Below, in pieces: positions 1,465 through 5,310 of a stretch of DNA of 64,000 nucleotides. Location: NCBI GenBank assembly GCA_964016885.1, contig OZ024742.1, forward strand, positions 286,936,001-287,000,000. Direction: 5' to 3'. Position 1 is the stretch's first letter. Every line of letters begins with the position of its first letter. The notes under the pieces were generated by a model that did not search any database, was not told the origin of the DNA, and saw nothing but the letters and a program-made list of their open reading frames with translations. A program made the position numbers and the translations under genes. This stretch comes from Eledone cirrhosa (taxonomy: Eukaryota).

Positions 1465-1895
1465 TTAGAATTGGCGCTCTGAAATAGCGATATTATATGA
1501 ATGTATATATAGTGTATTTTGCAATACACTGTATGCTTAATTAAAAGCATTTCGAAGACCTTATGCTATTGTTTTAGAGTAGTGACAGTCTCACTTACTT
1601 TAAATTTTCAGCAAACAGGGGAGATAAAGCTGACAGAGCTATGTTTCGTACTTATTGGTACTTATCAAAGCCAAGTACTCCACCTGTTTGCTGAAAATCA
1701 TGAATGTTTGATTCTTATAGAATTTCTAGGAATAATTAGGAACTGATTATACAGAGCGGTTGCCGGTCAAGCAGAAATTGAAAATTAGAATTGGCGCTCT
1801 GAAATAGCGATATATATATGAATAGCATAAGGTCTTCGAAATGCTTTTAATTAAGCATACAGTGTATTGCAAAATACACTATATATACATTCATA
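1465..1895 (-). mobile_element. Non-autonomous HHR-bearing element (~321-bp unit, 1.1 copies plus inverted end), copy 1
   Basis: ttagaattggcgctctgaaatagcga occurs at 1465 and 1786. 1812-1895 is the reverse complement of ~1493-1570. (TA)n on both sides. A related copy lies at 4928-5310. Confidence 0.75.
1604..1698 (-). ncRNA. Type I hammerhead ribozyme (U3-A8 core variant)
   Basis: Minus strand: gct-TTGATAA-gtac caataa gtac-GAAA-ca tagctc tg-TC-agc. Stem I extends as attttcagcaaacagg/cctgtttgctgaaaat. Confidence 0.75.
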
Positions 1896-2612
1896 TATAT
1901 ATATATATATATATATATATATATATATAATAATACAAGGACGATTTGTTAAGCCTTCATTACGTCTATTGATTGGTGACGCGCGTTTCGCTATTGATCA
2001 GCTCTACTGTTCTAATGACAGAATTCTGTCATTAGAACAGTAGAGGTCCGACAGCTTTTGATTCAGGAGTCGCGCCAGATCAATACAGATCGAAGCTTGA
2101 GCTGATCAATAGCGAAACCTGCGTCACCAATCAATAAATATGTGTGAGTCTGTGTATGTGTGTTTGTATATATATATATATATGTATATATATATATATA
2201 TGTGTGCGCGTGTGTGTATGTGTGTGTGTATATATACATGTATGTGTGTGTGTGTGTGTGCCAGTCTCGGGTTCAAACGGGGTTGAACACAGTAAGTAAG
2301 GTACTCAATATATTAGTATAGTGTATAAAACAAAATTTAATATGGAAATGGTTTCTATACATATACACATATATATGTGTGTATATGCGGTGTTAGCAAA
2401 ATATGGTTGTTCTGATAAATTTATCAATAAATTTTGAAGAATATCTGTTCGAATGAAAGGCCATATTAAATTTGGTGGCTCACTGCAAGTTAAGATCCCT
2501 TTGTAGTTGAACATGTGGTGAGACAAGGAAACCTTGATGCCCCTACCTTATTTACGATTTATCTTGCAGCTATGCTTTAAACTGCTTTTCAGGATAGCGA
2601 ATAATGGATATA

Positions 2613-2710
2613 TACTCGGTGTCCCAACAACACACTTTGATTACCGGCACAGGAAATATTTATTAGAATGCTGTTGAAATGTGCACACATTTTGGGGGAA
2701 CACCTTGTAT
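2613..2710. mobile_element. Tc1/mariner-type MITE remnant
   Basis: Ends resemble TACAGGGTGTCCC-type TIRs at TA sites. A related copy lies at ~56225-56303. Confidence 0.45.
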
Positions 2711-4240
2711 ATACACAAAATACAATTATAGAAGGAAACGTTTTAAATTTATCTCGATTGAGGACTAAATCAAAGAATGTGTTAGATATGCGCGAAAATA
2801 GGACATATCCTCCATTACTGTGAATAAAGGTCTTACATTTTTCCTTGTTCACATTGTAACAAGGTATACTTATCAACGGCGGGTTTAAAATCCCATTTAA
2901 GTTCGCATGATATAAACCATTTAACATGATTTGAATACCGAATCTATATATCAAATTGGCCATAAAAGATGCAAAATATCTGTTAGCCTTAACATAATAA
3001 AATCTACAGAACTGGTGATGTTTCTGATGAGAACACTTTCGCACCAATACTTTTTAAACTCAACTGAAAAATTTGGCAAAATATTTTTCACTACATGTCT
3101 GGACTTAAGAACCATTTACAGTCCCACAGTAGAAATCTTTCACTCCGTGTCTCGACTTAAGAACAGGCTCAGAATATCGGGGTTCATTCTGTTGCAAATC
3201 TCAATGTAGCCTACTTTATCTGTCATCTGGTTTCAGATCACCACATGATCGTAGGATACTACCTTCCCTCTACCCCTATTGGTATCAGGGGTCCTTAAAA
3301 GGATCTCTGGGGCCCTGAAAAGGATCGTGGGTACTGACCTGACTCTCTTTTTCTGACTAAACAGTAAGACGTTCCAGTGTTACGTAGCAGTCATATACTG
3401 GGGTAAATCAATGGACTGTACACTTCTCTAAACCCCGTTTATGTGATTGCACTAATGTAAGGTATACTATATACCTGTCATATAATGAGGTAGATTTAAT
3501 TGACTGTACTCCTACACACACACACACACACACACACACACACACACACACACACACACACACACACACATTCTTTTTATGGTCTTGTCCTAACCTAAGA
3601 TGTAATTATCATTTTTCACTTTGAAATACCTCAATTGCATCATCCATTATTCTTTTCGTTCATTTTATTATTATTATTATCATCATCATCATCATCATCA
3701 TTATCTTCATCACCACCACCACTGCAATCATCACCACCACCTCCACCACCACCACTGCAATCATCACCACCATCTCCACCTCCACCTCCACCACCACCTC
3801 CACCACTACCACCACCACCACCACCACCACCATTATTCTGTTGTTGCAGATAGATAGATCAAATTGCATTTGTCAAAACATTTCTTTTCTTTTTGTTTTA
3901 CCTGATGCAGGTAGTACGCAGTTTGTTATTACAGTAGAGCAGTAATAAACTAACAAATAAATAAATAAACAAACAAATAAATAAATAATTAAACAAATAA
4001 ATGACAGGCAGACAGCAGAGCTTCTTCGCAAAATCGGAATGACAGCAGTCCGTCTGAGGAAGGGACACCGCGACTTCGGGTGGCTGTTGCAGTGCGGACC
4101 GCTGACCATTGTCCGCGGAAATGCCTTTGCCATTTTGTCCGCGGGGTAAATCCGAAATCGCTCTGACCTAGGTGTAGAGTCTGTCACGCTCTCCCCTTCC
4201 TCTTTTCTTTCTTTTTTTTTTTTTGTCTAATAGTCCTTAC

Positions 4241-4327
4241 CGTTTCTTCTCCTTTTCCTCACATTTGAGGCATTTATAGTTCTTTCCAATACTGCTTTCT
4301 TTCTCAGTCGGGAAATATGTGACATTT
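4241..4327 (-). CDS. Candidate 87-nt exon of an unidentified gene
   Basis: Minus strand: catcAG acceptor (4328-4329) and GTaagg donor (4240-4235). Open in two frames (NVTYFPTEKESSIGKNYKCLKCEEKEKK or MSHISRLRKKAVLERTINASNVRKRRRN). No recognised homology. Confidence 0.25.
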
Positions 4328-4927
4328 CTGATGCAATTAATATTCAACATTTGTAAAGCTGAAAATGCATAAATAATATAAATAATATAAATGATATATA
4401 TATATATATATATATGTGTGTGTGTGTGTGTAATATATATATATATATATATATATATATATATATAATAAATGTATATATGTGTGTGTGTGTGTCTGTG
4501 TGTGTGTGTGTGTGTGTACAATTCACTCCTGCGTTTGTTTGTTCTTTTCAACTGTATATATATTTATATATATATGTATATATATATATATATATATATA
4601 TATATATATATATATATATATATATATATATATATATATATATATATATATATATGTATATGTATATATATATATATATATGTATATGTAGGTATATGTA
4701 TATAAATATAAGACAAACATAAAATACTCATACTTTACTTCTGTATTTGACATATTTTCTTTTTTGTTTTCATTTAATTGGTGTTTATATTTATTATTAT
4801 TATTTGTAGTATTTATTTATATATTTTAATTGTTTTGTTTTTTTTGTTGTTGCTATTTCGTTGTTTGACAACCATGGTTTGTCGTATCGATAATTGGGTC
4901 ATTAATCTATACTTACATATATATATA

Positions 4928-5310
4928 TTAGAATTGGAGCTCTGAAATAGCAATATATATATGAATGTATATATAATGTATTTTGCAATACACTTTATGC
5001 TTAATTAAAAGCATTTTGAAGACCGTATGCTATTGTTTTAGAGTAGTGACAAACTCACTTTAATCTCAACAAACAAGGGGAGATAAGCCGACAAGGCCTT
5101 GTTTCGCATTTATTGATACTTATCAAGGCTAACTACTCCCTCCTGTCTACTGAGATCACTGATGTTATATTCTTATAGAATTCTAGTAAATAATCAGGAA
5201 CTGATTTTGCAAAATACATTATATATACATTCATATATATATTGCTATTTCAGAGCTCCAATTCTAATTTTTAATTTCTGCCTGACCGGCAACCGCTCCG
5301 TATAATCACC
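4928..5310 (-). mobile_element. Non-autonomous HHR-bearing element, copy 2 of the ~321-bp family
   Basis: Aligns by eye with 1465-1745. Its inverted terminal segment (5205-5310) spans the unit junction. Confidence 0.75.
5086..5130 (-). ncRNA. Type I hammerhead ribozyme (U3-A8 core variant)
   Basis: agcc-TTGATAA-gtat caataa atgc-GAAA-caaggccttg-TC-ggct. Stem III is the palindrome acaaggccttgt, with a GUC cleavage triplet. Confidence 0.8.

What the first reader, a model, noticed from the sequence alone, without database searches (positions are those of the whole stretch)
1465..5310. ~321-bp HHR family: two diverged copies show stem covariation and a circular/tandem template
Seen: between copies, stem I changes gct/agc to gcc/ggc and stem II changes gtac/gtac to gtat/atgc, while stem III keeps a palindromic centre (agct versus ggcc). 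Copy 1 runs 1.1 units. Copy 2 starts at the same point, yet its inverted tail (5205-5310) reads across the unit junction into sequence absent from its forward arm. Inference: the template was multimeric or circular, so this is a second retrozyme family of typical size.
Basis: partly seen in the sequence, partly recalled or inferred. Interest (0 to 1): 0.75.

Follow-up and report, generated by a model that had tools for sequence, protein, structure and literature searches.

The report
Penelope-borne retrozyme with U3-A8 hammerhead
These are two copies of an abundant 320-base non-coding repeat that carries a predicted self-cutting hammerhead RNA with a rare but already published core swap, and that is likely pasted into TA repeats from a longer-than-unit, probably circular, RNA by Penelope-type jumping-gene enzymes: a new example of a known kind of element.

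Summary
Each copy carries one type I hammerhead motif on the minus strand, inside a 316-322-bp non-coding unit. A 27-letter core pattern has 4,257 hits in the genome (control 0); the C3-G8 version has 2. The two copies belong to subfamilies 80-85% alike, and stems I, II and III show double changes between subfamilies. Dispersed copies include tandem arrays of up to 6.5 units. Insertions end at two fixed sites about 26-30 nt apart, mostly in (TA)n; 51 of 54 inverted insertions with two fixed ends have one of each, the Penelope 'tail' signature. 5' ends do not pile up at the ribozyme cut, so templates were uncut multimers or circles. One correction: the junction that copy 2's tail crosses is the insertion end, not the cut site. 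No coding Penelope element with this unit as its end was found, and no RNA data were available. This is a new member of the animal non-LTR retrozymes; the scan has noted what is likely the same family on other DNA of this genome (e1-9598865, e1-9527955).

The parts
1464..1823 (-). Copy 1 main arm (subfamily A): one full 321-bp unit plus 40 bp of the unit before it; 3' end (long end, unit 321) abuts (TA)n at 1420-1465
1629..1671 (-). Type I hammerhead motif of copy 1: stem I GCU/AGC, core UUGAUAA, stem II GUAC/GUAC, GAA, stem III with AGCU centre, GUC; predicted cut between 1632 and 1631
1604..1698 (-). Extended stem I (about 19 further pairs beyond an internal loop) around the copy 1 motif
1821..1902 (+). 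Copy 1 inverted arm, unit 215-295; ends at the short end, running into (TA)n at 1880-1929
4927..5206 (-). Copy 2 main arm (subfamily B), unit 37-321; long end beside a short (TA)n
5087..5129 (-). Type I hammerhead motif of copy 2: stem I GCC/GGC, core UUGAUAA, stem II GUAU/AUGC, stem III ACAA-GGCC-UUGU, GUC; predicted cut between 5090 and 5089
5207..5308 (+). Copy 2 inverted arm, unit 261-321 plus 1-41; ends at an internal position beside a C-run, not at a fixed end

Best explanation
The two copies are members of a dispersed, non-coding family of 316-322-bp units, each with a type I hammerhead motif whose core reads U3-A8, and the family is likely a non-LTR retrozyme copied into (TA)n tracts by a Penelope-like element's enzyme from an uncut multimeric or circular RNA. 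Steps: (1) shown: thousands of copies, several subfamilies, compensatory stem changes, tandem arrays, two fixed 3' ends, variable 5' ends, frequent back-to-back inversions. (2) inferred: tandem copies are transcribed on the minus strand and cut at GUC, releasing a 320-nt monomer that is ligated to a circle. (3) inferred: a Penelope-type RT-endonuclease nicks both strands of a (TA)n target and primes two cDNAs at two internal sites about 26-30 nt apart (long end, unit 321; short end, inside an internal AU-repeat tract near unit 291-295), about 140-170 nt 3' of the cut site; the two cDNAs stop at random and are joined 5' to 5'. (4) inferred: copying round the circle regenerates arrays. The partner element was not identified.
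For: 4,257 exact hits of the U3-A8 core pattern, 0 for the reversed control; 2 hits for the C3-G8 version, neither in this family. On 26 chosen motif regions 95.7% of 828 cells pair, 8 of 32 pairs show double changes, stem I proximal and stem II 100% paired, slid controls 39-50%; stem II is fully Watson-Crick in 52 of 60 distinct positional copies, with G-U in 4, mismatched in 4. Circular monomers of 4 groups fold at z -5.5 to -6.4 (sense; 40 shuffles each). Longest ATG frame in a natural tandem stretch 25 aa; G+C 33.6%. Of 131 distinct insertions, 71 are inverted; of the 54 with two fixed ends 51 have one long and one short end, 3 two short, 0 two long (about 27 mixed expected, p about 1e-12). 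(TA)-rich flank at 63 of 75 long ends and 69 of 106 short ends, against 2 of 20 internal ends. This matches the Penelope tail and inverted structure (Craig 2021, section 6) and the two RT start sites shown in vitro (PMC11167929). 5' ends within 5 nt of the cut: 2 of 202, 6.9 expected if uniform. Five full units of array L141 differ by 0-1 substitutions, against 11-13 to the two other arrays of its group.
Against: No cleavage, expression or circle was shown. The count of pairs with a double change is not above the shuffles (221 of 500 reach it), and the 26 rows are related and were chosen by me; the stem II haplotypes amount to about three independent double changes. The predicted minimum-energy fold is not the hammerhead fold: the constrained fold lies 2.3-5.4 kcal/mol higher in 6 of 6 copies tested. 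The antisense strand also folds well (z -2.9 to -6.1). Other arrays are less uniform (L135: 3-6 substitutions; L045: 9). The two arms of one insertion were closer to each other than to any other insertion in only 9 of 44 cases. Neither Penelope family of this window has a 3' end like the unit. In the Xenopus test only 1 of 9 predicted retrozyme dimers cleaved, and in the Anolis element cleavage was not needed for insertion. Each of the two window copies has a single motif and so could not release a monomer alone.
Confidence: 0.8

Rival explanations
1. The unit is the pseudo-LTR of a coding Penelope-like element, and the copies are its 5'-truncated stubs.
For: Insertion scars are those of Penelope elements; U3-A8 cores are known from Cercyon pLTRs of Schistosoma (PMC4209133); Xenopus retrozymes are homologous to pLTRs; two loci join the unit directly to Penelope sequence (L035, L084).
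Against: Upstream of a unit lies the same unit again, in arrays of up to 6.5, not an ORF end. tblastn with 6 protein pieces from the window's two Penelope elements hit 15 of 152 loci; a DNA map put Penelope sequence within 60 bp of a unit at 7 loci that are 5 insertions, at differing positions; in L147 a (TA)n tract separates them. The motif is canonical with full stem III and long stem I, unlike the minimal pLTR motifs. An older sister family is also non-coding. Flanks were mostly 1.5 kb and the queries few, so a rare coding parent is not excluded.
Confidence: 0.08
2. Same family and same enzyme, but the template is an uncut linear read-through transcript of tandem source copies; the ribozyme is kept for another step or is slow, and no circle is needed.
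For: 5' ends pass the cut site as they would on uncut RNA; hammerhead mutants did not affect insertion in the Anolis element in vitro; the hammerhead fold is not the lowest-energy fold.
Against: With a fixed internal start and 5' truncation a daughter can only be as long as its parent or shorter, yet arrays of 4-6.5 units occur in three subfamilies and near-identical units occur in L141; stems are kept by double changes across subfamilies and an older sister family, which argues for selection on the fold.
Confidence: 0.1
3. A satellite or inverted-repeat DNA element that spreads at the DNA level, with a chance hammerhead look-alike.
For: The window is rich in hairpins and microsatellites; Rfam score is below the gathering cut-off.
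Against: One fixed and one variable end per arm, the long/short rule, an invariant core beside covarying stems, control pattern 0 hits.
Confidence: 0.02

Closest known systems
Metazoan non-LTR retrozymes (Cervera and de la Pena 2020, PMC7229834; mussel 350-390 bp, axolotl 330/350 bp; Li, Clavereau and Pollet 2026, bioRxiv 10.64898/2026.07.22.740005)
   Same: Type I hammerhead in a 150-450-bp non-coding, low-G+C unit, tandem and dispersed, thousands of copies, strongly self-paired predicted circle, Penelope elements in the same genome.
   Different: Core is U3-A8 throughout; stem III is longer (4 pairs with palindromic tetraloop in most subfamilies) than the 1-2 pairs typical of animal motifs; expression and circles are shown there and untested here; the parts I read do not describe the two fixed ends or (TA)n targeting for retrozymes.
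Penelope-like element insertions and pLTR hammerheads (Cervera and de la Pena 2014, PMC4209133; Craig et al. 2021, bioRxiv 10.1101/2021.04.23.441226; Frangieh et al. 2024, PMC11167929)
   Same: 5' truncation, partial tandems, inverted 5'-truncated arm, a tail on one end only, (TA)n targets, type I hammerhead upstream of the 3' end; U3-A8 variant seen in Schistosoma Cercyon motifs (about 1,300 hits).
   Different: [quoted passage not shown]
Natural U3-A8 hammerheads (Perreault et al. 2011, PMC3088659)
   Same: C3-G8 tertiary pair replaced by U3-A8; stated there to be active in vitro.
   Different: Here the swap is fixed in a family of over 4,000 motif copies and in an older sister family.

Membership tests
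Metazoan non-LTR retrozyme | Type I hammerhead motif in each unit | tested here: met
   core is the U3-A8 variant
Metazoan non-LTR retrozyme | [quoted passage not shown] | tested here: met
   Met by the family (L020, L045, L135, L141; 29 distinct cut-to-cut monomers of 316-327 nt); not by the two window copies, which have one motif each
Metazoan non-LTR retrozyme | Non-coding, G+C under 50% | tested here: met
   Longest ATG frame 25 aa in L020 tandem stretch; G+C 33.6%
Metazoan non-LTR retrozyme | Highly self-paired predicted circle | tested here: met
   z -5.5 to -6.4 for 4 of 4 sense monomers; antisense also folds
Metazoan non-LTR retrozyme | Self-cleavage of the transcript | not testable with these tools
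   Needs an in vitro assay
Metazoan non-LTR retrozyme | Accumulates as linear and circular monomer RNA | not testable with these tools
   No run on record as RNA was offered
Metazoan non-LTR retrozyme | Target-site duplication longer than 4 bp, when present | tested here: inconclusive
   Flanks are mostly (TA)n, which hides duplications; none evident at copy 2
pLTR of a coding Penelope-like element | Directly follows an RT/GIY-YIG frame in the longer copies | tested here: not met
   limited to 6 query pieces and mostly 1.5-kb flanks
pLTR of a coding Penelope-like element | Insertions with a tail on one end and an inverted 5'-truncated arm | tested here: met
   51 of 54 inverted insertions with two fixed ends
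pLTR of a coding Penelope-like element | Minimal hammerhead lacking stem III | tested here: not met
   Stem III of 3-4 pairs and long stem I

The most novel reading that the evidence does not exclude
A long-lived, parentless lineage of RNA circles with a fixed U3-A8 hammerhead: it has persisted through about 35-40% sequence divergence without a coding relative, and it captures a Penelope enzyme by offering an internal AU-repeat tract that pairs with the nicked (TA)n target for one primer while the other primer starts 26-30 nt further on, so that each insertion records a two-primer reaction on a circle.
Probability: 0.3. Interest if true: 0.55.

Novelty: new member of a known kind. Interest (0 to 1): 0.3.

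Why it matters
How animal retrozymes are mobilised is proposed but not shown in the papers read (PMC7229834 discussion; Li 2026). This family gives a countable genomic rule (one long and one short end per inverted insertion, no 5' pile-up at the cut) that ties a retrozyme to the two-start-site chemistry shown for a Penelope enzyme, and a large natural series of U3-A8 hammerheads that searches with the usual core would miss. The kind of element, the core swap and the insertion signature are each in print, and the scan has met the family before, so surprise is modest.

Tried and rejected
RNA evidence: no RNA holder listed; four runs of unrecorded kind, kept as contigs, were laid and cannot show ends or circles. 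Whole-window Rfam scan was swamped by microsatellite matches and its 150 listed rows did not include the two motifs; the repeat finder was swamped too. First exact core pattern gave only 12 hits because it used the window copies' rare letters. Twin priming for copy 2: its inverted arm ends at unit 41, 4 nt from the main arm's 5' end at 37, but only 1 of 17 internal ends lies within 5 nt of the other arm's 5' end, as chance would give, and 18 of 20 internal ends lack a (TA) flank, so later deletion of a short-ended arm is as likely. The flank right of copy 2 has no close second copy, so no empty site could be read. Arm-versus-arm identity did not show a shared template (9 of 44). Partner search: the window's Hydra-like element (54,074 candidates; tail about 64 nt by my reading) and its Neptune-like element have 3' ends unlike the unit; clade names are my recalled reading of motifs, Pfam gave only weak GIY-YIG and RVT_1 matches for the second and none for the first. 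R-scape was not available; one search is the substitute. Literature: searches listed no paper on a cephalopod retrozyme or on U3-A8 retrozymes, which does not show absence; 'octopus' was my guess from the microsatellite load and genome size. Two papers on dimer cleavage and on core-pair exchanges were not held; supplements were not read and those of PMC7229834 and of the 2026 preprint may list such families.

Full report
Observation. Copy 1 is a 321-bp unit (1464-1784) with 40 bp of a second unit and an inverted arm (1821-1902); copy 2 starts at the same base of the unit (4927-5206, 84% identical) and has an inverted arm (5207-5308) holding unit positions 261-321 and 1-41. My motif scan of both strands of the window found three hammerheads: the two of this family on the minus strand (1629-1671, 5087-5129) and one unrelated at 14644-14680. 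Unit positions below count on the ribozyme strand of copy 1; the predicted cut follows position 153.

The ribozyme motif. The core reads UUGAUAA in place of CUGAUGA, that is U3-A8 for the C3-G8 tertiary pair (pair described in PMC3884650, passages; natural U3-A8 and its in vitro activity stated in PMC3088659, passages; seen in Schistosoma Penelope motifs, PMC4209133, parts 1-2 of 4). It is family-wide: a 27-letter pattern has 2,304 + 1,953 = 4,257 hits with 0 for the control, the C3-G8 version 2, neither in this family, and a pattern for non-U at position 3 in the two window subfamilies 6. Rfam HH9 aligns with matching loop 2 and loop 1 letters but scores 21.9 bits against a cut-off of 52. Stem I extends about 19 pairs beyond an internal loop. 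The hammerhead fold lies 2.3-5.4 kcal/mol above the predicted minimum in 6 of 6 copies, so folding may need tertiary contacts, a dimer through the palindromic stem III, or protein (inference).

Covariation. The two window copies belong to subfamilies 80-85% alike, each with relatives at 97-98%. I aligned 26 of 84 distinct motif regions, chosen to cover the stem II groups. 95.7% of 828 cells pair; 8 of 32 pairs have double changes, in all four helices; slid controls pair 39-50%; percentage paired and covariation score exceed 500 of 500 shuffles, but the number of pairs with a double change does not (221 of 500), and the rows are related. In copies taken by position on contig C1, stem II reads GCUU/AAGC 20, GUAC/GUAC 18, GCAC/GUGC 7, GCAU/AUGC 6 and seven others (two from other families), 52 of 60 fully Watson-Crick: about three independent double changes. 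Copy 2's GUAU is a one-sided change from its subfamily's GCAU.

Insertion anatomy. From loci L001-L152 I took 131 distinct insertions not cut by a locus edge; segments made only of simple repeat were dropped, 72 loci were best hits and the others were picked by motif, so lengths are biased upward. 60 are direct and 71 inverted. 3' ends fall at unit 321 (long) or within an internal AU-repeat tract near 291-295 (short). Of 54 inverted insertions with two fixed ends, 51 have one of each, 3 two short, none two long (p about 1e-12 against independent ends); 17 have one internal end. Fixed ends mostly abut (TA)n (63 of 75 long, 69 of 106 short; 2 of 20 internal). Copy 1 follows the rule. This is the Penelope pattern: partial tandems, an inverted 5'-truncated arm and a 30-40-bp tail on one end (Craig 2021, passages and section 6), explained by two adjacent RT start sites (PMC11167929, parts 1-2 of 4).

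Template. The junction crossed by copy 2's tail is the long end, not the cut, so crossing it does not by itself need a multimer. A cleaved linear monomer primed at 321 could give only 168 nt. Yet 164 of 203 arms run through the cut site and 88 exceed one unit (71 and 25 of 94 in the positional sample), and only 2 of 202 5' ends lie within 5 nt of the cut. Arrays reach 6.5 units; the five full units of L141 differ by 0-1 substitutions, those of L135 by 3-6. The template was therefore uncut multimer or circle. A circle is favoured because something must regenerate length (inference) and because mussel, coral and axolotl retrozymes accumulate as circles (PMC7229834, parts 2-4 of 6); natural monomers fold as circles at z -5.5 to -6.4. 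Copy 2 itself is either a twin-primed inversion or a truncated short-ended arm; only 1 of 17 internal ends fits twin priming closely.

pLTR test. No coding element ending in this unit was found. Penelope protein hits in 15 of 152 loci lie at varied places; I read L147, L133, L084 and L035 in sequence and judged the rest by coordinates. In L147 the unit sits in the (TA)n after an element. L035 and L084 join the unit directly to Penelope sequence in the same direction: template switches or insertions with deletion, two cases only. The window's two Penelope families have unrelated 3' ends. An older sister family (1,573 candidates) is 60-66% alike over up to about 215 nt, has U3-A8 in 11 of 13 parsed cores and no consistent frame beside it. 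The test is limited by few queries and short flanks.

Comparison and verdict. It meets the sequence features of animal non-LTR retrozymes; cleavage and circles could not be tested. The 2026 preprint (parts 1-3 of 5) already derives such elements from Penelope ends. Earlier notes of this scan describe what is likely the same family and the same end rule; I reached both before reading them. Verdict: real, a new member of a known kind, interest 0.3.

Noticed in passing
window 14455-14906: Unrelated element with a C3-G8 hammerhead at 14644-14680 (+; Rfam HH9 37.7 bits) between two 117-bp arms that are perfectly inverted, inside (TA)n.
   Followed up: no
window 15780-19700 (-): Broken Penelope-like element (RT pieces, GIY-YIG with an upstream Cys motif, Neptune-like by recall) whose end holds a minimal hammerhead-like motif; its 3' end has copies at 99% identity. 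A stub of the same end lies at about 6780-6960.
   Followed up: partly
window 40400-42030 (-): Truncated Hydra-like Penelope element of a very large family (54,074 candidates) that also shows two fixed 3' ends, about 64 nt apart.
   Followed up: partly
L133:6200-6800, L218-L247: Older, roughly 350-bp non-coding sister family with U3-A8 core and a shorter stem III, 60-66% alike to the unit; a further relative at about 73% in L221:862-1009.
   Followed up: partly
L035:1274/1275 and L084:1898: Direct, same-direction joins between the retrozyme and Penelope sequence, possible template-switch chimeras.
   Followed up: partly
L136:4830: One arm whose 3' end lies at unit 152, one base from the predicted cut.
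   Followed up: no
window 1321-1410 and 1950-2140: Two short inverted-repeat stubs next to copy 1, each beside (TA)n; the first recurs next to other insertions.
   Followed up: no
window 30214-33287: 45-bp tandem array of 69 copies with long open frames.
   Followed up: no
L165:230-740: Inverted insertion of another family with one U3-A8-like and one C3-G8 hammerhead-like core, and a 3' region 68% alike to unit 216-295.
   Followed up: no
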